From Actinomycetota bacterium (GTDB lineage Bacteria > Actinomycetota > UBA4738 > CALAEC01), in assembly GCA_050693155.1 (NCBI GenBank), contig JBOGWA010000128.1, positions 10,668 to 74,667 on the forward strand: a stretch of 64,000 nt of DNA. Direction: 5' to 3'. The notes beneath the pieces are model-generated. The model saw only the letters and a list, made by a program, of their open reading frames with translations. It did no database searches and was not told the origin of the DNA. This document shows, in pieces, positions 20,862 through 44,251 of the stretch. How positions within the stretch are numbered: the first letter of the stretch is position 1; each line of letters opens with the position of its first letter. The position numbers and the translations under genes are program-made.

Positions 20862-20865
20862 CTTC

Positions 20866-21339: not shown

Positions 21340-21761
21340 TCGCGCCTCACCTCCGCCTCGGATCTGAGGGTCAGGGCATCCGGCACGTCGCCCGCAAACC
21401 CGAGCGCACGGAGCGGAGCGAGAAGCAGGGCGAGTGGATTCGCGACCTCGTAGGTCACGAGGACTCGCACAGGACCGTTCGGGCTCGCGCTCTCCGGTTC
21501 GACGGAAACCGTCGTGGGGGTCAGGAGCGGCGTTGCCTCATCGACCGCCTCCGTCACGCTGGCCTGATCCGGATACGAGCGAAGGTCCGGCGAGGACGGG
21601 ATAGAGACGAATCGGGCCCCGGCCCGAGCGCCGTGGTCGAGGATGGTCTTCACCGTTCCCAACCACGAGGCGAAGAGCAGTGTGCCGACGGCCGCGAGGA
21701 GAATCGGCAAAGCGAACGCCAGCTCGACGGTGGCCACCCCGCGCTGCCTGTCATCAGTCAT
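21336..21761 (-). CDS. tadE: TadE-family pseudopilin
   Basis: 141 aa. Classic TadE N-terminus GVATVELAFALPILL. Confidence 0.7.
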   Translation of the reverse strand: MTDDRQRGVATVELAFALPILLAAVGTLLFASWLGTVKTILDHGARAGARFVSIPSSPDLRSYPDQASVTEAVDEATPLLTPTTVSVEPESASPNGPVRVLVTYEVANPLALLLAPLRALGFAGDVPDALTLRSEAEVRRE

Positions 21762-22921: not shown

Positions 22922-22990
22922 CGCGTCTCCGAGAACAAGGCGGCGCCGGGGGGTGGGGACCGGCGCCGCCAATGCTCGTGCGAGTCCGTC

Positions 22991-26275: not shown

Positions 26276-27478
26276 ATGAAGGCCGTCGCCTGCTCGACCC
26301 TCGTCACCTGCGCGTCTCGCTCCATACCCGTCACTCCGATGGACGAACCCCACGTCATCAACGACGGCGTGGTGGCGTGGGACGGGGAAACCATCGTCTA
26401 TGCGGGGCCGGGTGACGGTTTCGACGGAAGCCTCGACGAGACGTACGAGGGATGCACGATCGTTCCCGGGTTCGTCGACTGTCACACCCATCTCCCGTTC
26501 TTCGGCTGGCGCGAGGACGAGTGGGAGGCGCGACTTGCCGGGCAGACGTATCGAGACCTCCAGGGGCGGGGCGGCGGCATCGCGCGGAGCGCTCGAATGC
26601 TCGCCGAGGCCTCCGACGATATGGTGCTCGACTTCTGCAGGCCGCTCATGGCCGAGATGCTGGCGCACGGCACCACGGCCCTCGAGATGAAGACGGGCTA
26701 CGGCCTTTCCGTCGACGCGGAGCTTCGGCAGGCGCGCCTCGCTCGGGCGCTGGCGGACGAAGCCCCTCAGACGTGCACGGTGACGCTGCTCGCGTGCCAC
26801 GCCGTGCCCGAGGGCGTCTCGCGCGAGGAGTGGGTCCGGGTCGCCTGCGAGGAGCTCATCCCGAAGGCCTTGGCCGAAGGTTTCATCGACGCCGTCGATG
26901 TCTATGTCGAGGACATCGCGTTCTCGGTCGCAGACCTCGAGCGCGTCGCCGAATCCGCAAGCGAGGCCGGGCTCCCCCTTCGTTGCCACGCGGAGCAACT
27001 GGGCCGAACGGGGTCGGCCGAAGCAGCGTCCAAGCTGGGTGCGAGGAGCGCCGACCACCTGAACAACGTCGACGCGTCCGGCATTGCCGCCCTCGCTGCG
27101 TCCCACACCGTTGGGGTTCTCCTGCCAGCATCGACGTTCTCCCTCCGGATGCGCCCGCCTCCCGTCGCGGAGCTCATCGAGGCCGGGGTGCACCTCGCCG
27201 TCGGCACCGACTTCAATCCCGGGACGTCGCCGGTTCTCTCAATGCCCGAAGCGATCGCAATGGCGTGCTCGCTCTATGGTCTGGGGCCGAAGCAGGCTCT
27301 CACCGGTGCGACGATCAACGGAGCATGGGTTCTCGGTCTTCACGATCGACTCGGGTCCCTCGAGCCGGGGAAGCGCGCGGATTTCCTCGTCCTCGATGGC
27401 GAGGATGTTCGGATGCTTGCCTACCGTCCGGGTCACAACCCCGTTCGCCGCGTCTTCGTCGGTGGGAAGGCCGCGTAG
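26276..27478 (+). CDS. hutI: Imidazolonepropionase
   Basis: 400 aa. Amidohydrolase metal motif FVDCHTHLPF and full-length HutI-like sequence. Flanked by hutG, hutU and hutH. Confidence 0.85.
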   Translation: MKAVACSTLVTCASRSIPVTPMDEPHVINDGVVAWDGETIVYAGPGDGFDGSLDETYEGCTIVPGFVDCHTHLPFFGWREDEWEARLAGQTYRDLQGRGGGIARSARMLAEASDDMVLDFCRPLMAEMLAHGTTALEMKTGYGLSVDAELRQARLARALADEAPQTCTVTLLACHAVPEGVSREEWVRVACEELIPKALAEGFIDAVDVYVEDIAFSVADLERVAESASEAGLPLRCHAEQLGRTGSAEAASKLGARSADHLNNVDASGIAALAASHTVGVLLPASTFSLRMRPPPVAELIEAGVHLAVGTDFNPGTSPVLSMPEAIAMACSLYGLGPKQALTGATINGAWVLGLHDRLGSLEPGKRADFLVLDGEDVRMLAYRPGHNPVRRVFVGGKAA

Positions 27479-27483
27479 GTCTG

Positions 27484-28395
27484 CTAGCTCACGCGATCGG
27501 CGAGACCGGAGGAGAACGACAGGAGGCAGGAGGCGGCAGCAAGCGTCGTCGCGTCGGCAACGTCCTTTGTGGGGTCCATCTCCACCAAATCAAGAGCTCG
27601 GACCTTTGGTTCCCTGCCGCAGAGGAACGCGGCCTGACGAAGCTCCCACGGCGTGAGCCCGCCGGGACGTGAGCCGGGAGCAGCGGGAGCGAAGACGCGA
27701 TCGAGGACATCGAGATCCAGATCGACGTAGATCTCATCGCATCGCGCAGATAGCTGCGTGAGCGCTCCCGCGACGACTGGTTCGATCCCGCCGGAGCGGA
27801 CGGCGTCGATCGTCACGACCGAGATTCCGGCTTTCTCCGCCACCTCGGCATAGAAGGCGGAGTTGGCGAACGACTGAATTCCGATCTGGACGATGTTCTC
27901 CCCCGGTAGCCCGTCGGCCAGCAGAGCGCGGATCGGGTTGCCGTTGCTGAGTCCGCCCTCGAGGTCACGGAGGTCGTGATGGGCGTCGAGTGTCAGCAAG
28001 CCGATGCGCCCGAGCGAGTCGCCGACAGCGTGCACTCCCGGCCTCGTGACGCTGTTGTCCCCTCCGAGGACGGCGACCACATCCGCGCCTTCCAGTGCTT
28101 TGCGCAGGCCCTGGCTCAACGGTTCGAGTGCATCCTCGGGTTTCACATCCGCGAGGTCGAGGTCACCGAGGTCGGTCGCAGCGAGGCGCTGGACGTCCGT
28201 TCCGCTTTCGACGTCGAAGGTACTGAACGTATGCAGCACCGCCCGGATCGCTCCCGGCGCCAGGTCGCAGCGGCCCGGAGTGATCGACGAGAGATGGAGC
28301 GGCGCTCCCAGGACGGCGATGCTTTTACTCGGGTTGGGCTCGTGCTTTCCGAGGAGCCAGGTGCTTGCTCGAGGCCAGTTCGGATCGTCGGGCAA
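27484..28395 (-). CDS. hutG: Formimidoylglutamase (arginase/agmatinase family)
   Basis: 303 aa. Ureohydrolase Mn-binding motifs (GGDNSVT, a DAHHDL region, SVDLDVLD). The hut context favours HutG over arginase. Confidence 0.75.
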
Positions 28396-28401
28396 CAGGC
28401 C

Positions 28402-30051
28402 TTAGCCCTCCTTCATCGGCAGGCGGATCCCGCGCTCTCGGGCGACTTCGACGGCGCGGTCGTAGCCGGCGTCCGCGTGGCGGATCACCCCGAGGCCCGG
28501 GTCGCACGTGAGGACCCGCTCGAGACGCTCGGCGGCCTCCTTGGTCCCGTCGGCGACGACGACCATTCCGGCGTGGATCGAGTACCCGATTCCGACGCCG
28601 CCTCCATGGTGCAGTGAGACCCAGTCGGCTCCGGCGGCCGTATTCAGGAGTGCGTTTAGCACCGGCCAGTCGGCAATCGCGTCGGAACCGTCGGCCATTC
28701 CCTCTGTCTCTCGATACGGAGAGGCCACGCTCCCCGCGTCCAGGTGGTCGCGCCCGATCACGATCGGCGCCGCGAGCTCGCCGGACGCGACCATCTCGTT
28801 GAACCTGACCCCGGCTCGGTCGCGTTCGCCGTAGCCGAGCCAGCAGATCCGCGCGGGCAGTCCCTGATACTTGACCCGGTCCTCGGCCATCTGGAGCCAG
28901 CGTTGCAGCCGGTCGTTCTCAGGAAATAGCTCGGCGACCGCTCGGTCCGTCGCGATGATGTCGGCGGGATCTCCCGAGAGCGCGACCCATCGGAAGGGCC
29001 CCCTCCCCTCGCAGAACATGGGACGGATGAACGCGGGGACGAACCCTGGGTAGTCGAAGGCCCGCGTCGAGCCCCCCTTCTCGGCGCCGGCGCGGAGGTT
29101 GTTTCCATAGTCGAAGACGACGGCGCCGGCTTCCTGGAAGCCCAGCATCGCCTCGACCTGGCTCGCCATCGACGCGTAAGCGCGATCCGCGTACTCCTCC
29201 GGCTTCGTGCGACGGAGCTCGGCGGCCCCGCCGAGCGAGAGGCCTGTCGGGACGTATCCGTCGAGCGGATCGTGGGCCGACGTCTGATCGGTGACCACGT
29301 CCGGTCGAAAACCGCGCCGCAGAAGCTCCGGGTGGGTCTCCGCGGCGTTTCCAAGGAGGCCGATCGAGACTGCTTCTCCCCCGCGCACCCCTTCCTCGAC
29401 CCACCGGATCGCTTCATCGAGGTCGTCGGTCGAGCGGTCGAGGTAGCCGGTCTTCTGACGTCTTTCGATCCGCAGCGGGTCCACCTCGACGACGAGTGCG
29501 ACGCCTTCGTTCATGGTGACTGCGAGCGGTTGCGCGCCGCCCATGCCGCCGAGGCCCGCGGTCAGGACCACCCGACCGCGAAGGCTGCCGCCGAAATGCT
29601 GGGACGCGCACTCGGCCAGGGTCTCGTAGGTTCCCTGGAGGATCCCTTGGGTCCCGATGTAGATCCAGGAGCCCGCCGTCATCTGCCCGTACATCGTGAG
29701 CCCGGCATCTTCCAGCTCACGGAACGTCTCCCAGTCGGCCCACTTTGGGACGATCATCGCGTTCGAGATGAGGACCCGAGGCGAGGTGGGATGGGTTCGG
29801 AAGACCCCGACCGGCTTCCCCGATTGCACGAGGAGCGTTTCGTCTCCCTCGAGGCTCCGGAGCGACGCCACGATCGCGTCGAACGCCTTCCAGCTGCGGG
29901 CCGCCCTCCCGGTTCCTCCGTAGACCACGAGGTCTTCGGGCCGCTCGGCGACCTCGGGGTCGAGGTTGTTCATGAGCATCCGGAGGGCTGCCTCCTGCGG
30001 CCATCCCTCGCACGAGATATCCGGGCCGCGCGGCGCTCGGATCTCTCTCAC
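28402..30051 (-). CDS. hutU: Urocanate hydratase
   Basis: 549 aa from the GTG at complement 30049..30051 ([17 protein letters not shown]...), which overlaps the hutH stop. The track ORF carries a 226-aa spurious extension. Full-length urocanase similarity, including the [11 protein letters not shown]-binding motif. Confidence 0.9.
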
Positions 30052-31595
30052 TGGAGCGGACCGGCGGCCGCCGCGGCGGTGTCCACGAGGGCTCCGGTTC
30101 GGACGATCTCGGTCGACTCGGAGATGTCGATGGAGAGGTCGCGGTCTTCCTCCAAAAATGGCACTCGCTCCCGGAGGGCATTCAGGGCCCCCATGGTCCC
30201 CGGGGCCGGCTCCAGCGGCTTCCTGAGGTCGATCGCCTGCGCGGCGCACAGGGCCTCGATCGCGAGGATCGTCCCGACCAGTTCGACGACGCGCCGGAGC
30301 TTCAGGCCCGCGAGCCAGCCCATGCTCACGTGGTCTTCTTGCGTACCGGACGTCGGGATCGAGTCGAGGCTCGCCGGCTGCGCGAGCAGCTTGCACTCGG
30401 AGACCAGCGCGGCCTGCGTGTACTGAGCGAGCATGTAGCCCGATCCAAGCCCCGGCGTCGTCGAGAGGAAGGGAGGAAGCCCCCGCGCCGCCCCCGGTCC
30501 GAGGAGCCAGAGTGTTCTTCGTTCGGAAATGTTGCCGATTCCGCAGAGGGCGACGGCCATGAAGTCGAGCGCGTAAGCGAGGGGCTGACCGTGAAAGTTC
30601 CCGGTGCTCTCGACGCGACCGTCGGGAAGGACGACAGGATTGTCGACCACGGATTCGAGCTCCCGGGCGAACACCTCGGCGGCGAAGGCGAGGGTGTCCC
30701 GACCCGCTCCGTGCACCTGTGGTGCGCACCGCATCGAGTACGCGTCCTGGACCGCATGCTCGCTCTCGGAGTGCGAAGCGATGATCGAGCTTCCCTCAAG
30801 GAGGCGGCGGATGTTCTCGGCCGACGCGCTCTGTCCGGGGTACGGGCGGAGCAGGTGCAGGTCCTCCGCGAACGGACCGTCCGTTCCCAGAGCGCCCTCG
30901 ATCGTCATCGCCGCGGTCACGTCGGCGGTGGAAGCCAGGAGCGCCGCATCGTGGTGAGCAAGCAAGCCGAGAGCGAGCATCCCGTCGGTCCCGTTTACGA
31001 GCGCAAGTCCCTCCTTCGGCTGGAGGCTGAGGGGCTCGAGGCCGGCTCGTTTGAGGGCCGAGTCCGTGGGTTCTGTTCCGGTACGAGCGTGGAGCACCCG
31101 CCCCTCTCCGATCAGGACGAGCGCGATATGGGCGAGCTGGGCGAGATCGCCGCTGGCGCCCACCGAACCGCGATCCGGCACGGCCGGGTGGATTCGCTCG
31201 TTCAAGAGCTCCACGAACCTCGTGACAACGTCGGGACGCACGCCGGAGAACCCGGCGGCAAGGGTTCGCGCCCGGAGGAGCATCATCGCCCGGACCACTT
31301 CCGCAGGCAGGAGATCTCCTGTTCCGGTCGCGTGGCTTCGGATCAGGTTCTGCTGGAGCCGGTCGAGGTCGTCGGGATCGATGCGGACGTCGGCGAGAGC
31401 CCCCAAACCGGTCGTGAGCCCATAGATCGCCTCGCCGCTCGCCACGTGGTCCTCGACGAGCTTTCGGGATCTCCCCATGGAGGGGACAACTTCCGGATCG
31501 AGCGAGACGCGCGCGCCGTCTCGAGCCACGGCGAGCACGTCGCCCGCACCCAGCGGTCCGCCGTCGATGACCACCTCCGCACGCCGGTCCGCCAT
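30048..31595 (-). CDS. hutH: Histidine ammonia-lyase
   Basis: 515 aa. The MIO-forming ASG triad (SVGASGDL) and an aromatic ammonia-lyase fold. Confidence 0.9.
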
Positions 31596-34803: not shown

Positions 34804-35276
34804 GGTTCCTGGACGAGCTCGACGAGGACCCCGCCGAAGCCCTTCGGGTGGACGAACGCCACCTTCGTGCCCCGCGAACCCGGCCGCGGCTCCTGGTCGA
34901 CGAGTGAGATTCCCTCCTCCTTGAGGCGCTCGAGGGCGGCCCGGATGTCCGTCACCCGGTATCCCACGTGGTGGACGCCCTCTCCGCGCTTGGCGAGGAA
35001 TCTCCCGACGGGCGTGTCCGGCCCGAGCGAGCGCAGGAGCTGAATGTAGGAGGTCCCGATCTTGAAGAGGACCTCTTCCACGCCTTGATCCTCGATCGTC
35101 TCCCGGTGTGCAGGTTCCACGCCGAACGAGCGCCGGTATCGCTCGACCGCGGCCTCGAGGTCGGCGACCGCGATGCCGACGTGATCGATGCCGTCAAGCA
35201 CGCTGTGCCTCTGTTCTGCGGCGCCGCCCGGGGCTCGGCTCCGGCTGGAGGGATTGTTGTGAATCATGACAATCAT
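34800..35276 (-). CDS. mce: Methylmalonyl-CoA epimerase (VOC/glyoxalase family)
   Basis: 158 aa from the ATG at complement 35274..35276; the track ORF is extended by 258 aa. Motifs IDHVGIAV and HHVGYRV. Its stop overlaps the sthA stop (convergent). Confidence 0.7.
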   Translation of the reverse strand: MIVMIHNNPSSRSRAPGGAAEQRHSVLDGIDHVGIAVADLEAAVERYRRSFGVEPAHRETIEDQGVEEVLFKIGTSYIQLLRSLGPDTPVGRFLAKRGEGVHHVGYRVTDIRAALERLKEEGISLVDQEPRPGSRGTKVAFVHPKGFGGVLVELVQEP

Positions 35277-35423
35277 ATCGCCGTGTCCGAATGGCGCTTC
35301 GTGTCCGCATGCAGCCTTCACGGCAGCGCAGGTGTCCTGATTCGGCCGTCGAACCTTCGATCGATGGGCATGACCGGTAGCGCGAATTGGCGTCATCCGG
35401 CAGACTGTGCACCCCGTATCGAG

Positions 35424-37259
35424 ATGAGTCCGACGACCACGAGCTCCGTCGCAGCCACCCTCGGCCAGTCGAGGCTGCTCGCGGTCGGCAAGGCCGACGT
35501 TGCGAGAATCCGCGCGAAGACGCGCCGGCGCCGCATCGTTCGGTTCCTCGTGATCTTCGGTCTTGTCGACGGCTATCTCTGGTACCGCTACCTCTCGGGG
35601 AACCCGATCGGCCCGCCGAGCCTCCCAGCCGACGCGGTCCTCTGGCTCCCGGCGCTTCTCTTGATTGTGCTCCTGGGCGTGCTGATCCTGCTGCCGATGA
35701 TCGGGAGCGGCCGCTCGCCCCACTCCCTCGTGCGACCTGAGCAGATCGACGTGGGCCTCGAAGAATTGAAGGGCCTGGACCCGCAGGTCGATGAGGTCAT
35801 TCGAAGCCTGAACGTCTTCCTCGGCCACGTGACCTTCCGGGAACGGCTCGGTGGGACCCCTCGCCGAGGGATCCTCTTCGAGGGCCCTCCCGGGACCGGG
35901 AAGACGTTCCTCGCGAAGGCGATGGCCAAGCAGGCGGGCGTCCCGTTCCTGTTCGTCTCGGCGCCGGCCTTCCAATCGATGTGGTTCGGGATGACGAACG
36001 CGAAGATCCGAGCGTTCTTCAGGGCGCTTCGCAAGATTGCTCGGCGCCAAGGCGGGGCGATCGGCTTCATCGAGGAGATCGATGCCATCGGAGCCGACCG
36101 AGGCGCGGTAACCGCCACGGCCTCAGCCGACGACAACAGGAGAAGCGTCTCGAGCTTCATCTCACCCGGAGCCGGAGGAATGGTGAACGAGCTGCTGATC
36201 CAGATGCAGTCCTTCGATCAGCCGACGTGGAGGCAGAGGCTGTGGACGCGAATCGTCGAGTGGATCAACGGTTATCTGCCGGAAGGAAAGCGGGTCGAGT
36301 CGGGTCGGCCCGAATACCACAACATCCTGCTGATCGCTGCGACGAATCGCGCGGAGGCGCTCGACCCCGCGCTCGTGCGACCCGGTCGCTTCGACCGCCG
36401 ACTCTACTTCGACCTTCCCACGAAGAAGGGGAGGAGAGATCTCATCGACTACTTCCTCGCCCGAAAGTCGCACGGAGAGGACCTCGAGGGGGAGGAGGCG
36501 CGCGAGCGTCTCGCACACGACACGTTCGGCTACACGCCCGTCGCGCTCGAGCGGCTCTTCGACGAGGCGCTCCTCACGGCCCTCCGCCACGGGCGCGATC
36601 GGATGACCCCTCCCGACGTCTACGAGGCCAAGCTCTCCGAGGAGGTCGGTCTCCGCCAGCCGGTGGTCTACACGCAAGAGGAGAAGGTGACCGTCGCCAC
36701 CCACGAGGCGGGGCACGCGACCGTCGCACACATCCTCGGCACGACCCGCCGGCTCGAGGTGCTCTCGATCATCAAGCGAAGGAAGTCCCTCGGCCTCCTC
36801 GCGCACGCCGATCTGGAGGAGCGCTTCACGAAGTCGCGCTCCGAGCTCGAGGCGCTGGTCGCTATCGCGATGGGTGGCCTCGCGGCCGAAGAGCTCTTCC
36901 TCGGCGAGAGCGGAACCGGGCCCGGGGCCGATCTGGCTGCGGCGACGGAAGTTGCCGCAACGATGGTGGGCGCGCTTGGAATGGCCGGCTCACTCGTGTC
37001 CTACGAGGCGATCGGAGAGAGCGCGATCCAGACGCGAAATCTCGTGGCGAAGGTCCTCGCCGATCCGGATGCAAAACGTCGGGTGGAGCTACTCCTTGAG
37101 AAGCAAAGACAGAAGGCCGTGAGCGTGCTCGAGGAAAACCGGGACATCGTTGAGTCGCTCCGCGACGCCCTTCTCGACCGCGACGAGCTCGTGGGGAACG
37201 AGATCGTCGGCGTGATCGAGGAAGCACTCGGCCGGCGCCCCGTCCTCGTCCTCGACTAG
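35424..37259 (+). CDS. FtsH-like membrane AAA+ ATPase fused to an M41 zinc metalloprotease (divergent paralog)
   Basis: Two N-terminal transmembrane helices, Walker A GPPGTGKTF, Walker B IEEIDAIG, an SRH region, and HEAGHA (HEXXH). I chose the ATG at 35424; an alternative ATG is at 35364. The track ORF from 34968 overlaps mce. Confidence 0.7.
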   Translation: MSPTTTSSVAATLGQSRLLAVGKADVARIRAKTRRRRIVRFLVIFGLVDGYLWYRYLSGNPIGPPSLPADAVLWLPALLLIVLLGVLILLPMIGSGRSPHSLVRPEQIDVGLEELKGLDPQVDEVIRSLNVFLGHVTFRERLGGTPRRGILFEGPPGTGKTFLAKAMAKQAGVPFLFVSAPAFQSMWFGMTNAKIRAFFRALRKIARRQGGAIGFIEEIDAIGADRGAVTATASADDNRRSVSSFISPGAGGMVNELLIQMQSFDQPTWRQRLWTRIVEWINGYLPEGKRVESGRPEYHNILLIAATNRAEALDPALVRPGRFDRRLYFDLPTKKGRRDLIDYFLARKSHGEDLEGEEARERLAHDTFGYTPVALERLFDEALLTALRHGRDRMTPPDVYEAKLSEEVGLRQPVVYTQEEKVTVATHEAGHATVAHILGTTRRLEVLSIIKRRKSLGLLAHADLEERFTKSRSELEALVAIAMGGLAAEELFLGESGTGPGADLAAATEVAATMVGALGMAGSLVSYEAIGESAIQTRNLVAKVLADPDAKRRVELLLEKQRQKAVSVLEENRDIVESLRDALLDRDELVGNEIVGVIEEALGRRPVLVLD

Positions 37260-37319: not shown

Positions 37320-38465
37320 ATGGATTTCAGTCTGACCGAGGAACAAACCCGATTCCGGGAAGAGGTTCTGCGGTTCGCCGAGGCGGAGCTGAACGACGAT
37401 CTGATCCGGCGGGACGCCGACGGAACTTTCTCTCGCGAGGCATGGAAGAAGTGCGCGGCGCTCGGGATCCAGGGAATGCCGGTTCCGCAGGAGTACGGAG
37501 GACTTGCGGCCGACCCGCTCACGATCATGATCGCGATGGAGGCCCTCGGCTACGGGTGTCGGGACAACGGGCTTCTCTTCTCGCTGAATGCGCAGATGTG
37601 GTCTTGCGAGGTCCCGCTCGTAAAGTTCGGAACCGAGGAGCAGAAGCGCCGGTACCTTCCTGGGCTCTGCGACGGCTCCCTGATCGGGGTGCAGGCCATG
37701 ACCGAGCCGGAGTCGGGATCGGATGCGTTCGCCTTGCGAACCACGGCCGTGAAGAAGGACGGCGTCTATGTTCTCAATGGCTCGAAGACCTTCGTGACGA
37801 ACGCGCCCCTGGCCGACGTGTTCGTCGTGTTCGCGACGGCCGATCAGGCGAGGGGGAGCGCCGCCATCTCGGCCTTCCTTGTCGATGCGGAGACGCCGGG
37901 ACTCTCCCGAGGACGTCCGTTCGACAAGATGGGGCTTCGAACCTCGCCGATGAGCGAAGTCGCCCTTTCGGACTGTGAAGTGCCCGAGGAGGGCCTTCTT
38001 GGACGCCCGTACGCGGGCATGGCGATCTTCAACTCCTCGATGCAATGGGAGCGAGCCTGCATCTTGGGGACGACGGTCGGGACGATGGAGCGCCTTCTCG
38101 AGCGTTCGATCTCTCACGCTCGCTCGCGGCGCCAGTTCGGAAAGTCCATTGGCAAGTTCCAGGGAGTCTCGCATCGGATCGCCGACATGAAGGTCCGCCT
38201 CGAGTGCGCCCGCCTCCTTCTGTACCGCCTCGGATGGCTGATGAACGAGGGGCGGGCGAGCCCGCTCGATTCGGCGATGACAAAGGTGTTTCTGTCCGAG
38301 AGCTTGGTCCAAACGAGCCTCGACGCGCTTCAGATCCACGGGGGATACGGCTACATGCGCGAGTACGAGCTCGAACGAGAGGTACGGGACGCGATCGCGG
38401 GCCGAATCTACTCGGGGACATCGGAGATCCAGCGAAACATCATCGCCGGCTTTCTGGGCTTGTGA
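37320..38465 (+). CDS. Acyl-CoA-dehydrogenase-family flavoprotein; by context a candidate aminoacyl-S-carrier-protein dehydrogenase (PltE/RedW/AnaB-like)
   Basis: 381 aa. ACAD fold with C-terminal YSGTSEIQRNIIA. Its stop overlaps the GTG of the downstream adenylation enzyme (GTGA). Confidence 0.8.
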   Translation: MDFSLTEEQTRFREEVLRFAEAELNDDLIRRDADGTFSREAWKKCAALGIQGMPVPQEYGGLAADPLTIMIAMEALGYGCRDNGLLFSLNAQMWSCEVPLVKFGTEEQKRRYLPGLCDGSLIGVQAMTEPESGSDAFALRTTAVKKDGVYVLNGSKTFVTNAPLADVFVVFATADQARGSAAISAFLVDAETPGLSRGRPFDKMGLRTSPMSEVALSDCEVPEEGLLGRPYAGMAIFNSSMQWERACILGTTVGTMERLLERSISHARSRRQFGKSIGKFQGVSHRIADMKVRLECARLLLYRLGWLMNEGRASPLDSAMTKVFLSESLVQTSLDALQIHGGYGYMREYELEREVRDAIAGRIYSGTSEIQRNIIAGFLGL

Positions 38466-40051
38466 CCGACTCCCTCCCCGCGGTTCTCGAAACGGCGACC
38501 GAGGCCAACCCCCAGAGGCTTGCGGTTGCCGATTCCCGTCTGTCCATGACCTATGCGGACCTGGAGCGTCAGGCGAATCGGCTGGCGCACCTTCTCAGGG
38601 ATCTCGGGGTGAAGAAAGGTGACCGCGTCGGTGTCTACCTCGAGAAGTCGTGCGAATCGCTCGTCGGTGTCTACGGGGCGATGAAGGCGGGGGCTGCGTA
38701 CGTCCCCCTCGACCCGTTCAGCCCGGCGAAGCGGCTCGCCTACATCGGTCGAGACTGCGGTATCCGAACGCTCTTGACTGGAGCGGAAATGGCCGAGACC
38801 TGGCCGGCGCTCATCGCCGAGGGGGCGGCGATCGACCATCTGGTGGTGCTGAACGAGCCCGAGGGACGCCTTCCCGGCGAGATTTCCGGCCCCCGCGGAA
38901 TCGGGACTGCGTCGCTGCTCGAGATGCCGGACGCGCCTCCAACGCACCCGCCGGGCGACGGGGATCTCGCCTACATCCTCTACACGTCGGGGTCGACGGG
39001 GAACCCGAAGGGGGTGATGCTCACCCACCGAAATGCGCTCGCATTCGTTGAGTGGGCCGCCTCGGAGTTAGCGCTGACGCCCGAGGATCGGCTCTCGAGC
39101 CACGCTCCGCTGCATTTCGACCTGTCGATCTTCGACCTGTTCGCAGCCGCCCGAGCTGGAGCTTCGCTTTGCCTCGTCCCGAGCGAAGTGGCGCTCTTTC
39201 CTGTCCAGCTTGCCGCCTGGATCGACGAGCAGCAGATTTCGGTTTGGTATTCGGTGCCCTCCGCCCTCTCCATGCTCGTCGATCGAGGGAGGCTCGAGCC
39301 GGGTGCGTTCCCCCGTCTTCGCACCGTGCTGTTCGCTGGCGAGGTCTTCCCGAAGAAGTTCCTCCGTCGGCTCATGCAGCTTGTGCCGCATGCACGCTTC
39401 TACAACCTGTACGGACCGACCGAGACCAACGTGTGCACGTTCCATGCCGTGCGCTCCTCGGAGGTTGACGATTCGTCCGAGATCCCGATCGGGAAGGCGA
39501 TCAGCGATGTCGAGGTCTTCGCGGTAACCGAGCGAGACCGTGTTGCGGCTCCGGGTGAGGTGGGTGAGCTCTTCGTTCGGGGCCCGAGCGTGATGCAAGG
39601 CTACTGGGGAGATACCGAACGGACCGCCCGGGTGCTCGTTTCGAATCCGATCGATCGAGCTTCGCGGGATCTCGTCTACCGAACGGGTGACCTCGTGCGG
39701 CTGGAGCGGGACGGAAACTATTCCTTCCTGGGTCGCCGTGATGCGCAGATCAAGAGCCGTGGGTACCGCATCGAGCTTGGTGAGATCGAGAGTGTGTTGA
39801 ACGCGCATCCGGCAGTACTTGAGTCGGCCGTCGTCGCGGTCCCGGATGAGCTGCTGACGAACAGGATCAAGGCCTTCGTCGTCGCCGGCCAGAAAGTCCC
39901 TGCCGGGGATCTCGCGCGCTTCTGCGTCGAGCGGATTCCCCGCTACATGGTGCCAGAAGAGTTCGAGTTCCTCTCGCGACTTCCGAAGACATCAACGGGC
40001 AAGATCGACCGCCAGGCCCTTCGTCCCCAGGAGTCCTCTAACCCGGCATAA
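38462..40051 (+). CDS. Free-standing amino-acid adenylation enzyme (NRPS A-domain; candidate L-prolyl-AMP ligase)
   Basis: 530 aa from the GTG at 38462; the track ORF has a 139-aa extension. Core motifs A3 LAYILYTSGSTGNPKG, A4 FDLS, A5 NLYGPTE, A7 YRTGDL, A8 GRRDAQIKSRGYRIELGEIE and A10 PRYMVP...TSTGKIDR. By-eye Stachelhaus code D-L-F-Y-L-A-L-V-C-K. Confidence 0.85.
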   Translation: MTDSLPAVLETATEANPQRLAVADSRLSMTYADLERQANRLAHLLRDLGVKKGDRVGVYLEKSCESLVGVYGAMKAGAAYVPLDPFSPAKRLAYIGRDCGIRTLLTGAEMAETWPALIAEGAAIDHLVVLNEPEGRLPGEISGPRGIGTASLLEMPDAPPTHPPGDGDLAYILYTSGSTGNPKGVMLTHRNALAFVEWAASELALTPEDRLSSHAPLHFDLSIFDLFAAARAGASLCLVPSEVALFPVQLAAWIDEQQISVWYSVPSALSMLVDRGRLEPGAFPRLRTVLFAGEVFPKKFLRRLMQLVPHARFYNLYGPTETNVCTFHAVRSSEVDDSSEIPIGKAISDVEVFAVTERDRVAAPGEVGELFVRGPSVMQGYWGDTERTARVLVSNPIDRASRDLVYRTGDLVRLERDGNYSFLGRRDAQIKSRGYRIELGEIESVLNAHPAVLESAVVAVPDELLTNRIKAFVVAGQKVPAGDLARFCVERIPRYMVPEEFEFLSRLPKTSTGKIDRQALRPQESSNPA

Positions 40052-40059
40052 TTGGTCCC

Positions 40060-40341
40060 GTGACGCTCGCGCCCCGCATCCTCGAATTCGTGAAGAACGA
40101 AGTGCTCGTAGAGGATCACGAGATGCCGATCTCCGACGACACCCCACTGCTTCGCGGCCTCGTGGACTCTGTCAACCTGTTTCGGCTCGTCGCGTTCTTG
40201 GAGGAGGAGTTCGATATCGAGATCGACGAGCTGGAGATCACCGCTGAGAACTTCGGCACGATCGCCGACATCGCGCGCCTGGTGGACCGGACGCGTCGTG
40301 ACACGCCAGAACAGTCTGACCCCGGTTCCCCGTCTACGTAA
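40060..40341 (+). CDS. Small peptidyl/aminoacyl carrier protein (type II PCP, DltC/PltL-like)
   Basis: 93 aa, GTG start. Phosphopantetheine-attachment motif GLVDSVNLFRLV and an acidic helical protein. Confidence 0.75.
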   Translation: MTLAPRILEFVKNEVLVEDHEMPISDDTPLLRGLVDSVNLFRLVAFLEEEFDIEIDELEITAENFGTIADIARLVDRTRRDTPEQSDPGSPST

Positions 40342-40375: not shown

Positions 40376-41065
40376 TCACGGCTCCCTGCGGAACAGGACG
40401 TAGACCATGTCGACGTGTTTCCTGCCGAGCGGGTACCGGATCTTCTGAACGGCAAGGGTTTTCAGGGTGGGCGCGGCGAGGTCTGGAAGCAGGGACTCCA
40501 AGGGCGCCTCGTTTCGGAGAAAGCGTCTGATGAGGGTTCGAACGACGGGAACGGGAATCCTGTTGATGCGCCCGAGTCGCGCACAGTACAGCTGAAACAA
40601 GCCTCCCGGCCTGAGGAGCCGGCAAACGGCCTCGAAATAGTCGGGCCACTCCGAGGGCGGAACGTGGTGGAGACATCCTCGGTCGAACACGAACGTGAAC
40701 GTGCCGTCTTTGAAGGGGATCCGCGGCGCCTCTGCAACGAGATATGAGACCTTCCCACCGACCGTGCCGTTGGCTTCCCTGGCCTGCATGAGCGCGCCAA
40801 TGGCCACGTCGAGGCCGACGACCCGCTCTAGATGGCGCCCCAGGTAGTTCGTCACGACTCCGGAACCGCAGCCAACATCGAGCGCGAGACCCTGTGGCAG
40901 CTCGCGACTCTCCTCGAGGAGCCGAAGCTCTGGGGGCGGCTCGGCAAGGTACCACCCGAACTCTGAAGCGCGCCTCCTTGACCATTCGACTTCCCAGTGT
41001 CCCCGCTGTTCGCTGGGCCCCGGCGGTCCCTGACTGTTCCGCTCTTCTGGATGGCTCGAGATCAA
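40376..41065 (-). CDS. Class I SAM-dependent methyltransferase
   Basis: SAM-binding motif LDVGCGSGV plus post-I/II motifs. I propose a TTG start at complement 41063..41065, overlapping the stop of the upstream thioesterase (TTGA). The track ORF is 117 aa longer. Confidence 0.6.
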   Translation of the reverse strand: MISSHPEERNSQGPPGPSEQRGHWEVEWSRRRASEFGWYLAEPPPELRLLEESRELPQGLALDVGCGSGVVTNYLGRHLERVVGLDVAIGALMQAREANGTVGGKVSYLVAEAPRIPFKDGTFTFVFDRGCLHHVPPSEWPDYFEAVCRLLRPGGLFQLYCARLGRINRIPVPVVRTLIRRFLRNEAPLESLLPDLAAPTLKTLAVQKIRYPLGRKHVDMVYVLFRREP

Positions 41066-41532
41066 ACCGGGGCTCCGGGAGTCGCCTCTTCTTCGGCCAC
41101 CACGGGCTCGGCGAGGGAGGCGCGGCGGCCGGGGAGGATCATCGAGGTGCCGACCGCCGCCGCGACCCGCTTTCCTTCGGCGTTCACGACCTCGCAGACC
41201 GCGGTCGCGAGGGTCTTCCCTCGATGGTCGATCGTCGCCCTCGCCTCGAGGTCTCGGCCGTCGGGTTCCACGGGACGGAAGAAGTTCATCTTGATGTCGA
41301 GTGGGGCGAAGGCCGTTCCGGCAGGCACCGTTGTCAGGACGGCGCCCTGCATCGCGAGTTCCGCGACGAACACGATCGCGCCGCCCTGGACACGCCGGAG
41401 AGGTGAGTTGAGCCACTCGGTCGTGGGAAGTGTCTGCGTGGCCCTCCCTTCCTCAGCATCAACCGGGCGAGATCCCGTGAGGTAGTAGAGCGGGGGAGCC
41501 GGCAACCTTCCGTCGATCCATTCTTGCATCAT
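41062..41532 (-). CDS. Hotdog-fold thioesterase (PaaI/4HBT-like)
   Basis: 156 aa. Contains VQGGAIVFVAELAMQG, a hotdog core. It overlaps the upstream paralog by 74 nt, so the start is uncertain. Confidence 0.6.
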   Translation of the reverse strand: MMQEWIDGRLPAPPLYYLTGSRPVDAEEGRATQTLPTTEWLNSPLRRVQGGAIVFVAELAMQGAVLTTVPAGTAFAPLDIKMNFFRPVEPDGRDLEARATIDHRGKTLATAVCEVVNAEGKRVAAAVGTSMILPGRRASLAEPVVAEEEATPGAPV

Positions 41533-42172
41533 CTGGAGACCGCTCCATGCGGTCCCACACCTCCTGCGGGATCGGCTCGCCCATCACCGGGCGCTCCCAC
41601 GGATCGGGCGTGTCGTAGGAAGGAATCTCCGGCGCGTAATCATCCGGCGGAGGGTCGGGCGCCGGATCGAGCGGCGGGAAGACGTAACAACGGGAGGTCC
41701 CGTGCGCCAGCATCCGCTCGTGCTCGTCGTAGAGGAACGTTTCCGAGAGGCCGATCGAGCGTCCGACGTGGATCAATTGCCCGTGCGCGGAGATCCGACC
41801 GCTCCGGACCGTGGCCGGCCGAAGAAACGTCATCGAGAGTTCCGCCGTCGTGTACGCGGTCGCAGGCGGAAGGGCCGAATGGACCGCCGTGCCGAGCGGG
41901 GCGTCGGCGAGCATGGCGAGGACCCCACCCGGAATGACGCCCGCGGGAGATTGGAGCCACGGACTCGCCGGCATCGAAAACGCTGACGTGCCCTCGCCTA
42001 TCTGGTCGAACCAGATGCCGATGAGATGAGAGACCGGCGGTCGCGGTCCGAGGAACTTGAGCCCGGTGCGGAGCTGCTCCAACCCCGTGAGGCCGAAAAG
42101 GCGTAGGTCGCCGTATCCGCCCCGCGCCGGCTCGCTCGTCGCGATGGGCTCCGGGAAGGGCGATGGACTCAT
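41459..42172 (-). CDS. Hotdog-fold thioesterase (PaaI/DUF4442-like), tandem paralog
   Basis: GVIPGGVLAMLADAPLG motif. I chose the ATG at complement 42170..42172; the track GTG is at 42187. Confidence 0.6.
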   Translation of the reverse strand: MSPSPFPEPIATSEPARGGYGDLRLFGLTGLEQLRTGLKFLGPRPPVSHLIGIWFDQIGEGTSAFSMPASPWLQSPAGVIPGGVLAMLADAPLGTAVHSALPPATAYTTAELSMTFLRPATVRSGRISAHGQLIHVGRSIGLSETFLYDEHERMLAHGTSRCYVFPPLDPAPDPPPDDYAPEIPSYDTPDPWERPVMGEPIPQEVWDRMERSPDDARMDRRKVAGSPALLPHGISPG

Positions 42173-42224
42173 GCGTGAGGAACCCACTTGGGGCCGACTG
42201 TCGGCCGAGCTAGTGAGCCTTCCC

Positions 42225-42932
42225 TCAGCTCACGGGTTCGGGGTCGACTGCGGAGAGGAAGCCCCACCAGGCCTCGAGGGCATCCTCGGTGGCGCCAACG
42301 GCGGCTTCCGGCTCGTCCTCCGCGAGTTCCTCGAGCATCGCGCGCTCGGCGCCCGAATGCTCCACATCGAGCCGCTCGTGGACCTCGAAGAACCCCGTGG
42401 TCCGGCCATCATCGATCCCGTAGTGCTTCCGCAGCCCGTCGATCTTCACACGAGAAACGGCCGGCACTTGTGCTTCGTAGGCATGGATCGCGGCGATCCC
42501 GGCAGCGACGGGCTCGCGGGCCGAGGTCCTCCGGTACGTCTCGACCAGCGTTCGCGTGGCCTCGTTTCGCTGCGAAGAGCGGACGTCGTCCCGTCCGACG
42601 CCCATCCCTTCGGCGAACTGGAGCCATAGCTCGGCGTGGTTTTCCTCCCCGTGCTCCTCATCCCACAGGTTCTCCAGCAGATGTTTGCGAACGAGCGGGT
42701 TCTCCGATCTCGAATGGATCGCCGAGAGAAACCGTGGGAATTCCGATTCGAAGGCGTAGTACTGACGGGCGTACTCCTGGATGGCTTCTTTCGGGAGCGT
42801 CCCCGCGTCCCACTTCTTGTAGAGCGGATGGGAAAGCAGATGGCGCTCCTGGATCATGCGATCGATCGTGTCGATGACGGCCACAGCGTCTCCTCCTTGT
42901 ATGTTGTCCGTGGGGCCCCAACAGACTCCCAC
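42225..42932 (-). CDS. CADD-like heme-oxygenase-like di-metal oxygenase (PqqC/TenA fold); homolog of the Chlamydia self-sacrificing p-aminobenzoate synthase
   Basis: 235 aa, GTG start. Aligns along nearly its full length with CADD/CT610 as I recall it. All six metal ligands are conserved (WDEEHGEENH, YEAQ, HERLDVEH). The sacrificial Tyr context (PLYKKW versus TFYVKW) and the Lys in RVKIDGL are also conserved. Confidence 0.75.
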   Translation of the reverse strand: MGVCWGPTDNIQGGDAVAVIDTIDRMIQERHLLSHPLYKKWDAGTLPKEAIQEYARQYYAFESEFPRFLSAIHSRSENPLVRKHLLENLWDEEHGEENHAELWLQFAEGMGVGRDDVRSSQRNEATRTLVETYRRTSAREPVAAGIAAIHAYEAQVPAVSRVKIDGLRKHYGIDDGRTTGFFEVHERLDVEHSGAERAMLEELAEDEPEAAVGATEDALEAWWGFLSAVDPEPVS

Positions 42933-43020
42933 TCCGCCCCCCTTCGATCAACCCCTTCCCAACCCGGTGAGCCTGCTTGTCCCCCCCCGGTGGGCCGGCG
43001 GCGGGAATCGTGCATCGCCG

Positions 43021-43026
43021 TAGAAT
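43021..43026 (+). promoter_or_regulatory. Candidate -10 element TAGAAT about 29 nt upstream of the thiolase GTG (which has RBS GAAAGGAG)
   Basis: Hexamer read from the sequence. No convincing -35 element. Confidence 0.25.
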
Positions 43027-43054
43027 GAGGACCAGACCGGGAAAGGAGTCGCGC

Positions 43055-44251
43055 GTGGGTGGATCGGTGATTGTTGCGGGGGCGAGGACCCCGATCGGGA
43101 AGTTCGGCGGCGGGTTCAAGGACCTGCCCGCGGTGGACCTGGGCGCAGCCGCGATCAAAGAAGCGCTCACGCGCGCCGGCATTCCGCCCGAACAGGTGGA
43201 CTACGTCCTGATGGGGCAGGTGATCCAGGCAGGCGCCGGGCAGATCACCGCGCGGCAGGCAGCGATCAAGGCGGGCATTCCGAAAGAAGTCCCGGCGATC
43301 ACGATCAACAAGGTTTGCCTCTCGGGCTTGAACGCGATCGCGCTCGCCGATCAGCTCATTCGAGCGGGGGAGATTGAGATCGCCGTCGCGGGAGGGATGG
43401 AGTCGATGGATCAGGCCCCCTACCTGCTCCCGTCGGCGCGGTTCGGGGCGAGGATGGGCAACGTCGAGTTGATCGACTCGATGATCTACGACGGACTCTG
43501 GTCGACATTTACCGACATGCACATGGGAGAGTCCTCGGATGACGTCAACTCCGAGCTGGGGATCGGCCGCGAGGAGCAGGATGCCTGGTCGGCGCGGAGC
43601 CACCAGCGAGCGAACGAAGCGTGGGAGGCGGGACGCATGAGCGAGGAGACCGTCCCGGTCGAGGTCCCACAGCGGAAGGGCGACCCGGTCGTGGTTGATC
43701 GCGACGAGGGCATCCGCCCCGACACCACAGCGGAGTCGCTTGCTTCGTTGAAGCCCGCATTCAAGAAGGACGGAACGATCACCGCCGGCAACGCCTCCCA
43801 GATCTCCGACGGCGGCGCGGCCGTCGTCGTGATGAGCCGGGAGCGGGCTGAGGGGTTCGGCCTCGAGCCGCTCGTGGAAATCGTCGCCCACGGGATGAGC
43901 GCCGAACGCTTCCCGTATCTCCACACGGTTCCTGCCCTCGCGGTCGAAGCGGCGCTGAAGAAGGCGGGACTCGGGACGAAGGACCTCGGGCTCGTGGAGG
44001 TCAACGAGGCGTTCGCAGCCGTCTCGCTCAACGCGGCTCGGATGCTCGACGTCGACCAGGAGGTCGTAAACGTGAACGGCGGTGCGGTCGCGCTCGGGCA
44101 CCCGATCGGGATGAGCGGTGCGCGGCTCGTGCTGACGCTCGCGTACGAGATGCGGCGCCGCGGCGTCGACCATGGGGCAGCCGCCCTGTGTGGGGGCGGA
44201 GGCCAGGGCGACGCGCTGATCCTGCGCAGGCCGGGGGGTTCGGAGGGCTAG
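43055..44251 (+). CDS. Acetyl-CoA C-acetyltransferase (thiolase II)
   Basis: 398 aa from a GTG 6 nt after GAAAGGAG. N-terminus VIVAGARTPIGKFGG, active-site Cys (VCLSGLNAI), and C-terminal GGGQGDALIL. Confidence 0.9.
   Translation: MGGSVIVAGARTPIGKFGGGFKDLPAVDLGAAAIKEALTRAGIPPEQVDYVLMGQVIQAGAGQITARQAAIKAGIPKEVPAITINKVCLSGLNAIALADQLIRAGEIEIAVAGGMESMDQAPYLLPSARFGARMGNVELIDSMIYDGLWSTFTDMHMGESSDDVNSELGIGREEQDAWSARSHQRANEAWEAGRMSEETVPVEVPQRKGDPVVVDRDEGIRPDTTAESLASLKPAFKKDGTITAGNASQISDGGAAVVVMSRERAEGFGLEPLVEIVAHGMSAERFPYLHTVPALAVEAALKKAGLGTKDLGLVEVNEAFAAVSLNAARMLDVDQEVVNVNGGAVALGHPIGMSGARLVLTLAYEMRRRGVDHGAAALCGGGGQGDALILRRPGGSEG

What the first reader, a model, noticed from the sequence alone, without database searches (positions are those of the whole stretch)
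42225..42932. CADD-family (Chlamydia pABA-synthase-like) diiron oxygenase in a high-GC genome, with sacrificial Tyr and Lys conserved
The 235-aa protein matches my recollection of C. trachomatis CADD/CT610 across nearly its whole length, not just at the motifs. The six metal ligands are present. The Tyr in PLYKKW corresponds to CADD Tyr27, from which pABA is carved. The Lys in RVKIDGL corresponds to the proposed amino donor. CADD-type pABA synthases are known from Chlamydia and Nitrosomonas, so a homolog embedded next to carrier-protein chemistry is unusual. It could be a stand-alone folate-pathway pABA source replacing pabABC. It could also be a tailoring oxygenase recruited to the adjacent pathway.
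Basis: partly seen in the sequence, partly recalled or inferred. Interest (0 to 1): 0.75.

Follow-up and report, generated by a model that had tools for sequence, protein, structure and literature searches.

The report
Ordinary self-sacrificing pABA synthase (CADD) gene
This is a genuine but already-annotated member of the CADD family of single-use enzymes, which make the folate precursor p-aminobenzoate from their own tyrosine and lysine; the family is common in soil Actinomycetota and Chloroflexota, and the carrier-protein genes next door are a recent, unrelated insertion.

Summary
The ORF is real. Its true start is most likely GTG 42884 (219 aa, AAGGAGG 7 nt upstream), not 42932. It clears NCBIfam's curated cut-off for the CADD family (TIGR04305, 254.7 vs 200 bits) and matches CT610 (E 2e-52) and the 267-aa chain 9pj4, taken to be NePabS (6e-48). 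An AlphaFold model superposes on CtCADD at TM 0.94-0.96. All six metal ligands, the sacrificial Tyr (Y38 = CT610 Y27), the amine-donor Lys (K163 = K152) and the relay residues are positionally equivalent.

The "unusual" part does not hold. NCBI already names this exact protein "CADD family putative folate metabolism protein". At least 580 species genomes carry relatives. The thioesterase, methyltransferase and carrier-protein genes accompany CADD only in the nearest relatives: hotdog in 4 of 91 loci, methyltransferase/carrier block in 1 of 91. Syntenic relatives have an empty slot there, so CADD does not co-vary with them. The block resembles a proline-activating cassette, not pABA chemistry.

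Best reading: a stand-alone housekeeping pABA synthase. Untested: pABA production, and absence of pabABC. A minor point is that the protein has the uncharacterised Tyr/Phe state at the two metal-selectivity positions, which is the majority state in the family.

The parts
42225..42884 (-). CADD/PabS-family gene, most likely CDS (219 aa, GTG start)
   Evidence: TIGR04305 254.7 bits vs cut-off 200. PDB 1rcw E 2e-52. Identical to NCBI MGH2740451.1, 219 aa. AF2 pLDDT 95.7, Foldseek top hits CtCADD at TM 0.94-0.96.
42885..42932 (-). 5' extension of the longest ORF (16 codons); probably untranslated leader, not coding
   Evidence: Homologues are 215-224 aa and align from residue ~17. The Shine-Dalgarno lies inside this stretch.
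42892..42898 (-). Shine-Dalgarno AAGGAGG, 7 nt upstream of GTG 42884
   Evidence: Read directly from the sequence.
42819..42821 (-). TAC codon of Tyr38 (Tyr22 in 219-aa numbering) = CtCADD Tyr27 / NePabS Tyr25, the sacrificial aromatic donor
   Evidence: Alignments. Tyr in 120/120 close homologues and 104/109 distant cluster representatives. Role taken from PMC11965152 and PMC9522330.
42444..42446 (-). AAG codon of Lys163 (Lys147) = CtCADD Lys152 / NePabS Lys159, the amine donor
   Evidence: Lys in 120/120 close and 97/109 distant representatives. Role taken from PMC11965152.
42357..42659 (-). Span holding the six dimetal ligand codons: E92 (42657-42659), H99 (42636-42638), E153 (42474-42476), H185 (42378-42380), D189 (42366-42368), H192 (42357-42359). 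Also the metal-selectivity pair Y152/F181.
   Evidence: signature EHEHDH, pair Y/F (CtCADD Y/Y, NePabS F/F).
42885..43054 (.). About 170-bp divergent intergenic region between CADD and the thiolase gene; presumed promoters; no riboswitch
   Evidence: Thiolase start inferred from the L001 orthologue. No Rfam hit at E<=1. No sigma-70 consensus match.
43055..44251 (+). Context, not part of the feature: acetyl-CoA acetyltransferase, the conserved divergent neighbour of CADD in this lineage
   Evidence: Pfam and NCBIfam. Thiolase sits beside CADD in 10 of 91 loci, all the same lineage.
41065..42187 (-). Context: double-hotdog (2 x 4HBT) thioesterase gene, 37 nt downstream of CADD, split by a +1 frameshift at ~41545-41548
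   Evidence: The L001 376-aa orthologue aligns at 89% and 88% identity in two frames. One extra base relative to L001. TIGR00369 hotdog thioesterase.
40376..41047 (-). Context: class I SAM methyltransferase (start approximate)
   Evidence: Pfam Methyltransf_25/11. 53% identity to the L001 methyltransferase.
37320..40341 (+). Context: probable prolyl-carrier-protein cassette. Prolyl-ACP dehydrogenase-like ACAD (37320-38465), stand-alone adenylation enzyme (~38480-40051), carrier protein (40060-40341). Convergent on the CADD operon.
   Evidence: NCBIfam PigA 450.6 and RedW 425.7 bits, both below their equivalog cut-offs; TIGR01733 405.6 vs cut-off 317.4. PDB 4irn prolyl-ACP dehydrogenase 445 bits. 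6o6e L-Pro ligase 349 bits. PP-binding.

Best explanation
The gene encodes a housekeeping, stand-alone, single-turnover p-aminobenzoate synthase of the CADD/PabS family (heme-oxygenase-like dimetal oxygenase). By analogy with CtCADD and NePabS, a dimetal cofactor is bound by E92, H99, E153, H185, D189 and H192. It reacts with O2 and a reductant and generates an oxidant. A radical hole travels through Tyr/Trp relay residues (Y152, W103, Y58, Y54) to Tyr38. The C-alpha to C-beta bond of Tyr38 is cleaved, leaving Gly. The released aromatic ring is oxidised to the carboxylate and aminated with the epsilon-amine of Lys163, which becomes aminoadipate. The result is one pABA per protein molecule for dihydropteroate/folate synthesis. 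Shown here: family membership, fold, positional conservation of every catalytic residue, and independence from the neighbouring genes. Inferred: the chemistry itself, the metal used, and that the product feeds folate.
For: TIGR04305 scores 254.7 bits against a curated cut-off of 200, while PqqC, BesC and TenA models fall far below theirs. There are full-length matches to CT610 (2e-52) and to the 267-aa chain 9pj4, presumed NePabS (6e-48). The AF2 model has pLDDT 95.7; its best PDB matches are CtCADD at TM 0.94-0.96 and rmsd 1.2-1.3 A, with PqqC next at 0.84. All catalytic and relay residues are conserved, and they are invariant in 120/120 close homologues. The gene sits in unrelated neighbourhoods in different lineages, with no recurrent partner. 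That fits a reaction needing only metal, O2 and reductant (PMC11965152), and validated NE1434 is likewise not clustered with folate genes. CADD identity between the window and L001 is 80%, within the range of the flanking housekeeping genes (85-91%). A strong SD precedes the start.
Against: No member of this Actinomycetota/Chloroflexota clade has been characterised. The protein is only 38-42% identical to the two validated enzymes, and in a crude NJ tree it is not bracketed by them. There is no folate or pab gene in the 64-kb window, no folate gene among recurrent neighbours and no THF or ZTP riboswitch, so nothing independent of homology ties it to folate. Presence or absence of pabABC in the genome could not be examined.
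Confidence: 0.8

Rival explanations
1. A CADD-fold protein of this clade that keeps the Tyr/Lys/ligand signature but has a different physiological output, for example another Tyr-derived aromatic product or a redox or regulatory role, rather than supplying pABA to folate synthesis.
For: It is not phylogenetically bracketed by the two validated enzymes. It has the Tyr/Phe state at the metal-selectivity positions, which has never been characterised. There is no genomic link to folate genes.
Against: Every residue shown by mutagenesis to be essential for pABA formation is invariant across the clade (PMC11965152). The score clears the curated subfamily cut-off. The predicted structure is near-identical to CtCADD. 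The validated NE1434 also lacks folate-gene linkage.
Confidence: 0.12
2. A tailoring oxygenase recruited to the adjacent thioesterase / methyltransferase / carrier-protein pathway.
For: The double-hotdog gene starts 37 nt after the CADD stop on the same strand, with no terminator-like site between them. The order CADD, hotdog, methyltransferase recurs in L001, and CADD followed by hotdog recurs in L002, L013 and L026.
Against: Co-variation fails. The hotdog is present in 4 of 91 CADD loci and the methyltransferase/carrier/adenylation block in 1 of 91. Syntenic relatives L006-L008, L012 and L070 keep thiolase and CADD with nothing in the slot. The sacrificial residues are equally conserved in loci without the block. 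The cassette resembles proline activation and oxidation enzymes. The hotdog gene itself is split by a frameshift in the window.
Confidence: 0.04
3. CADD-made pABA is the starter or building block for a small natural product assembled by the neighbouring adenylation enzyme, carrier protein and methyltransferase.
For: Physical proximity only.
Against: The enzyme performs a single turnover (PMC11363339, PMC11965152), so it would be a very costly source for secondary metabolism. The best full-length, stand-alone relative of the adenylation enzyme among solved structures is the L-proline ligase 6o6e, and the dehydrogenase's best relative is a prolyl-ACP dehydrogenase, not aryl-acid enzymes. The block is absent from 89 of 91 CADD loci.
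Confidence: 0.03

Closest known systems
CtCADD / CT610, Chlamydia trachomatis 4-aminobenzoate synthase (PDB 1RCW, 8VA9, 8VAG)
   Same: Same fold (TM 0.94-0.96). Same E-H-E-H-D-H ligand set, sacrificial Tyr, donor Lys and Tyr43/Tyr47/Trp92 equivalents. Similar length.
   Different: 38% identity. The second metal-selectivity residue is Phe181 rather than Tyr170, so Mn/Fe dependence cannot be assumed. The gene is not in a folate operon (CT610 clusters with folate genes; PMC1971073). It comes from a free-living high-GC actinobacterium.
NePabS / NE1434, Nitrosomonas europaea pABA synthase (PDB 9PJ4 presumed)
   Same: 42% identity over the full length. Sacrificial Tyr25 and Lys159 equivalents are conserved. 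Like NE1434, the gene is not clustered with folate biosynthesis genes. Phe at the second selectivity site.
   Different: The first selectivity site is Tyr152, where NePabS has Phe148. The protein also lacks the ~10-residue insertion that the 9pj4 chain has after the 'SAIH' motif (alignment).
PqqC (pyrroloquinoline-quinone synthase), the name JGI gives these proteins
   Same: Same heme-oxygenase-like helical bundle (TM ~0.84).
   Different: TIGR02111 scores 48 bits against a cut-off of 240, with ~18% identity. PqqC is cofactor-less (PMC11363339). The JGI name is a mis-annotation.
Pathway-embedded HDOs (BesC, UndA, SznF, HrmI)
   Same: Same superfamily (PF14518) and dimetal motif.
   Different: Those enzymes act on free small-molecule substrates and travel with their gene clusters. 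Here the BesC model scores 41 bits against a cut-off of 500, and the gene does not co-vary with any cluster.

Membership tests
CADD/PabS self-sacrificing pABA synthase (NCBIfam TIGR04305) | Score above the curated family cut-off | tested here: met
   254.7 bits vs cut-off 200, covering profile positions 3-210 of 212.
CADD/PabS self-sacrificing pABA synthase (NCBIfam TIGR04305) | Heme-oxygenase-like helical bundle superposable on CtCADD | tested here: met
   AF2 pLDDT 95.7, pTM 0.91. Foldseek hits 8vag/1rcw/8va9 at TM 0.94-0.96, rmsd 1.2-1.3 A.
CADD/PabS self-sacrificing pABA synthase (NCBIfam TIGR04305) | Six dimetal ligands (CtCADD E81, H88, E142, H174, D178, H181) | tested here: met
   E92, H99, E153, H185, D189, H192.
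CADD/PabS self-sacrificing pABA synthase (NCBIfam TIGR04305) | Sacrificial tyrosine (CtCADD Tyr27 / NePabS Tyr25) | tested here: met
   Tyr38 aligns in both phmmer and MAFFT alignments.
CADD/PabS self-sacrificing pABA synthase (NCBIfam TIGR04305) | Amine-donor lysine (CtCADD Lys152 / NePabS Lys159) | tested here: met
   Lys163 aligns.
CADD/PabS self-sacrificing pABA synthase (NCBIfam TIGR04305) | Essential Tyr43 and relay Tyr47/Trp92 equivalents (NePabS Y41, Y45, W99) | tested here: met
   Y54, Y58, W103. Roles taken from PMC11965152.
CADD/PabS self-sacrificing pABA synthase (NCBIfam TIGR04305) | Produces pABA with only metal, O2 and reductant; complements E. coli pabABC deletions | not testable with these tools
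   Needs wet-lab work.
CADD/PabS self-sacrificing pABA synthase (NCBIfam TIGR04305) | Tyr-to-Gly and Lys-to-aminoadipate scars after turnover | not testable with these tools
   Needs protein mass spectrometry.
CADD/PabS self-sacrificing pABA synthase (NCBIfam TIGR04305) | Host genome lacks pabA/pabB/pabC but has the rest of the folate pathway (true of Chlamydia and N. europaea; PMC4161248) | not testable with these tools
   Only the 64-kb window and 10-kb flanks of related loci are readable. No fol or pab gene was found among the window ORFs scanned, which says little either way.
CADD/PabS self-sacrificing pABA synthase (NCBIfam TIGR04305) | Phylogenetic bracketing by experimentally validated members (supportive, not defining) | tested here: not met
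   In the NJ tree, CT610 and NePabS form a 4-leaf clade that excludes the window protein. The tree is crude.
PqqC (TIGR02111) | Score above the curated cut-off | tested here: not met
   48.3 bits vs cut-off 240.
Gene-cluster tailoring HDO | Co-variation of the oxygenase with the cluster's core genes across genomes | tested here: not met
   Hotdog in 4 of 91 loci, methyltransferase/carrier/adenylation block in 1 of 91. The slot is empty in syntenic relatives.

The most novel reading that the evidence does not exclude
In this actinobacterial lineage, CADD is co-transcribed with a double-hotdog protein and, in the closest relatives, with a methyltransferase facing a prolyl-carrier-protein oxidation cassette. 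The most novel reading not excluded is that these genes work together: either the hotdog protein assists or processes the CADD reaction product, or a pABA-plus-pyrrole/pyrroline small molecule is made. That would be the first CADD-family enzyme wired into something other than folate supply.
Probability: 0.05. Interest if true: 0.6.

Novelty: new member of a known kind. Interest (0 to 1): 0.22.

Why it matters
For this gene, very little: it is a correctly annotated member of a known family. There are two modest family-level points. First, papers describe the self-sacrificing pABA route as occurring in "select bacteria" and have characterised only two enzymes, from Chlamydia and Nitrosomonas. 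Relatives were found here in at least 580 species-representative genomes, with the best matches in soil and groundwater Actinomycetota and Chloroflexota. If those genomes lack pabABC, a suicide enzyme would be a mainstream route to a folate precursor in major uncultured phyla. Second, the two characterised enzymes (Tyr/Tyr using Mn/Fe, Phe/Phe using Fe/Fe) are minority states at the metal-selectivity positions. The Tyr/Phe state of this protein is the majority (61 of 84 diverse representatives, 120 of 120 close homologues) and is biochemically unexplored.

Tried and rejected
- **Look-up of the window's own contig by exact protein:** not on record.
- **Genome scan with a very diverse alignment:** Repeated with a closer alignment.
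- **Riboswitch or other RNA evidence for folate regulation:** none, either at E<=1 around the gene or at gathering score across the window.
- **Promoter and terminator consensus scan:** no promoter match. Terminator-like sites were no more frequent than in shuffles, and none lies between CADD and the hotdog gene.
- **Folate genes next to CADD:** none among the window ORFs scanned, and none among recurrent neighbours of 85 non-redundant loci.
- **Phylogenetic bracketing by the validated enzymes:** negative.
- **Literature on family distribution:** the 2020 J. Bacteriol. paper and the 2014 Satoh paper are not held. The papers that are held give no survey of the family.
- **Idea that the adjacent adenylation enzyme activates pABA:** rejected, because it and the dehydrogenase best resemble proline-specific enzymes.
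- **Tailoring-oxygenase idea:** rejected on co-variation.

Full report
**Observation**

The window is uniformly high-GC (0.64-0.69). A 235-aa ORF lies at 42225..42932 on the minus strand, with coding-type third-position GC of 0.79.
- The longest ORF starts at GTG 42932. However, an AAGGAGG Shine-Dalgarno lies at 42898-42892, 7 nt upstream of a second GTG at 42884.
- Homologues are 215-224 aa and align from about residue 17.
- The 219-aa version is identical to NCBI protein MGH2740451.1.
- The real CDS is therefore most likely 42225-42884.

**Family membership**

- Pfam places it in PF14518/PF03070.
- NCBIfam TIGR04305, "CADD family putative folate metabolism protein", scores 254.7 bits against a curated cut-off of 200. 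PqqC (48 vs 240), BesC (41 vs 500) and TenA (21 vs 130) all fail.
- Against the PDB, the best matches are CT610/CtCADD (1rcw, 8va9; E 2e-52, query 20-231 vs chain 9-221) and a 267-aa "4-aminobenzoate synthase" chain (9pj4, 6e-48). PqqC follows at 1e-9. The table gives no organism for 9pj4; I take it to be NePabS.
- An AlphaFold2 model built on 17 homologues has pLDDT 95.7. Its best structural matches are CtCADD at TM 0.94-0.96 and rmsd 1.2-1.3 A, with PqqC next at TM 0.84.

**Catalytic residues**

These come from a MAFFT alignment of the window protein, CT610, the 9pj4 sequence and 229 homologues, anchored on CT610 numbering.

| Role (from PMC11965152, PMC9522330) | CT610 | Window (235-aa numbering) |
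|---|---|---|
| Sacrificial tyrosine | Y27 | Y38 |
| Amine-donor lysine | K152 | K163 |
| Metal ligands | E81, H88, E142, H174, D178, H181 | E92, H99, E153, H185, D189, H192 |
| Essential or relay residues | Y43, Y47, W92 | Y54, Y58, W103 |

- All of these are invariant in 120 of 120 close homologues.
- 84 of 109 distant cluster representatives keep the complete Tyr/Lys/ligand signature.
- Subtract 16 to convert to 219-aa numbering.

**How common the family is**

- The word-indexed search found 1,405 homologues at E<=1e-10. The top 120 are 62-80% identical and come from Actinomycetota and Chloroflexi MAGs. NCBI names several "CADD family putative folate metabolism protein", while JGI mislabels them "pyrroloquinoline-quinone synthase".
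- The exhaustive search of 50%-identity cluster representatives found 138 clusters at E<=1e-30.
The 80 best loci kept come from Actinomycetota, Chloroflexota (Limnocylindria, Dehalococcoidia, Tepidiformaceae), Dormibacterota, Verrucomicrobiota and Myxococcota.
- A CADD homologue in a high-GC genome is therefore ordinary.
- In the held literature only CtCADD and NePabS have been characterised, and the route is described as occurring in "select bacteria" (PMC11965152; the 2026 review PMC13108848).

**The neighbourhood**

- Downstream on the same strand are a double-hotdog thioesterase and a class I methyltransferase.
- Converging on them from the plus strand are an acyl-CoA-dehydrogenase-fold protein, a stand-alone adenylation enzyme and a carrier protein.
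- Upstream and divergent is an acetyl-CoA acetyltransferase.
- The two hotdog ORFs are one gene split by a single extra base. The 376-aa orthologue in L001 aligns at 89% and 88% identity in two frames, meeting at 41545-41548. NCBI's accession numbering implies the two halves were called as separate proteins.

**Co-variation test**

I compared 91 CADD loci: 11 from exact-protein look-ups and 80 from named genomes.
- The double hotdog lies beside CADD in 4 loci (L001, L002, L013, L026).
- The methyltransferase, carrier and adenylation block is beside CADD only in L001.
- The thiolase is the divergent neighbour in 10 loci, all from one actinobacterial lineage.

Within that lineage the backbone is conserved: LytR, acetyl-CoA synthetase, thiolase divergent from CADD, then FtsH-like or pyridine-nucleotide oxidoreductase, alcohol dehydrogenase, PD-(D/E)XK nuclease and carboxyltransferase. 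The slot just downstream of CADD is variable.

| Loci | Slot downstream of CADD |
|---|---|
| L006-L008, L012, L070 | empty |
| L069 | two small ORFs |
| L013, L002 | one double-hotdog gene |
| L026 | two double-hotdog genes |
| window, L001 | hotdog + methyltransferase + cassette |

In other lineages CADD sits beside unrelated genes such as GlpX or LysM plus a two-component system. CADD is therefore the resident gene, and the carrier-protein chemistry is a recent insertion beside it.

**What the inserted block is**

- The dehydrogenase's best NCBIfam hits are PigA (450.6 bits) and the L-prolyl-PCP dehydrogenase RedW (425.7 bits). Both are below their equivalog cut-offs, but above the best non-prolyl model (acryloyl-CoA reductase, 324.6 bits) and well above the other acyl-CoA dehydrogenase models (258 bits or less).
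- Its best solved relative is a prolyl-ACP dehydrogenase (4irn, 445 bits), against about 300 bits for butyryl-CoA dehydrogenases.
- The ligase clears the amino-acid adenylation domain cut-off (405.6 vs 317.4). Its best full-length, stand-alone structural relative is the L-proline-carrier-protein ligase 6o6e (349 bits).
- The block is thus most likely a proline-activating and oxidising cassette, not pABA chemistry.

**Independent links to folate**

None were found.
- No fol or pab gene is among the window ORFs scanned. The window is primary metabolism: acyl-CoA enzymes, an aromatic amino-acid lyase with amidohydrolases (a probable histidine-utilisation cluster, by inference), Tad pilus, cell-wall glycosyltransferases and an F420 ligase/nitroreductase protein.
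- No folate enzyme appears among the recurrent plus-or-minus-2 neighbours of 85 non-redundant loci. The recurrent families are response regulator and histidine kinase, DAO, Pyr_redox_2, amidohydrolase, ASCH, luciferase-like and a class I Trp/Tyr tRNA synthetase, and each is confined to one lineage.
- There is no riboswitch.
- This absence is not evidence against the function. Validated NE1434 is also not clustered with folate biosynthesis genes, although it lies next to a putative glyA, and the reaction needs no partner enzyme.

**Caveats**

- The protein is 38% identical to CT610 and 42% to the 9pj4 sequence. In a crude NJ tree those two cluster together and do not bracket it. Functional transfer therefore rests on residue and fold conservation.
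- Absence of pabABC could not be examined.

**A minor new point**

- The two positions reported to set metal preference are Y141/Y170 in CtCADD (Mn/Fe) and F148/F177 in NePabS (Fe/Fe) (PMC11965152). In the window protein they are Tyr152/Phe181.
- Among sequences with the full catalytic signature, this Tyr/Phe state occurs in 120 of 120 close homologues and 61 of 84 distant representatives. Tyr/Tyr occurs in 16 and Phe/Phe in 3.
- The majority state of the family is therefore uncharacterised.

**Verdict**

This is a genuine, already-annotated member of the CADD/PabS family. It is most likely a stand-alone self-sacrificing pABA synthase, and it is not part of the neighbouring carrier-protein pathway. 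Interest is low.

Noticed in passing
window 37320-40341 (+), with 40376-41047 (-) and 41065-42187 (-): A compact cassette: a prolyl-ACP/PCP-dehydrogenase-like ACAD, a stand-alone amino-acid adenylation enzyme and a carrier protein. This gene trio resembles the proline-activating sets of anatoxin and pyrrole pathways (from my own knowledge). It faces a methyltransferase and a double-hotdog thioesterase. No PKS, NRPS condensation or halogenase gene was seen nearby. It is found only in the window and L001 among 91 loci, and its product is unknown.
   Followed up: partly
window 41545-41548 (minus strand): A +1 frameshift, not in a homopolymer, splits the double-hotdog thioesterase gene into two ORFs (41459-42187 and 41062-41532). 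The second ORF has its own ATG. NCBI appears to have called them as two proteins. It could be a real split or an assembly error.
   Followed up: partly
CADD family alignment (window residues Y152 / F181): The Tyr/Phe state at the two metal-selectivity positions is the majority in the family (61 of 84 diverse representatives, 120 of 120 close homologues). The two characterised enzymes are the minority Tyr/Tyr and Phe/Phe states.
   Followed up: yes
window 34968-37259 (+); L006 10256-12217, L012 1339-3300: An atypical FtsH-like protein (AAA + M41 peptidase, only 281 bits against the FtsH cut-off of 600, with an interrupted AAA match). In relatives without the inserted block it is the conserved convergent neighbour of CADD. 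A protease beside a suicide enzyme is suggestive, but there is no evidence of a link.
   Followed up: no
L023, L047, L053, L054, L060 (gene immediately downstream of CADD, overlapping its stop by ~30 nt): In five Limnocylindria/Chloroflexia loci, a 155-aa ASCH-domain protein overlaps the 3' end of CADD. This suggests translational coupling. Its function is unknown.
   Followed up: partly
window 26276-31595: A probable histidine-utilisation cluster: an aromatic amino-acid lyase at 30048-31595 (-), an amidohydrolase at 26276-27478 (+), and a long unscanned ORF at 28402-30729 (-) between them.
   Followed up: no
window 16641-22972 (-): A Tad/Flp-type pilus cluster (T2SSF, T2SSE ATPase, RcpC/CpaB, TadE-like proteins).
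   Followed up: no
window 62575-63873 (-): A two-domain protein with F420-0:gamma-glutamyl ligase and nitroreductase domains (FbiB-type by my reading), consistent with an actinobacterial origin.
   Followed up: no
homologue table: JGI/IMG annotates most members of this family as 'pyrroloquinoline-quinone synthase'. That is a systematic mis-annotation: the PqqC model scores 48 bits against a cut-off of 240.
   Followed up: yes
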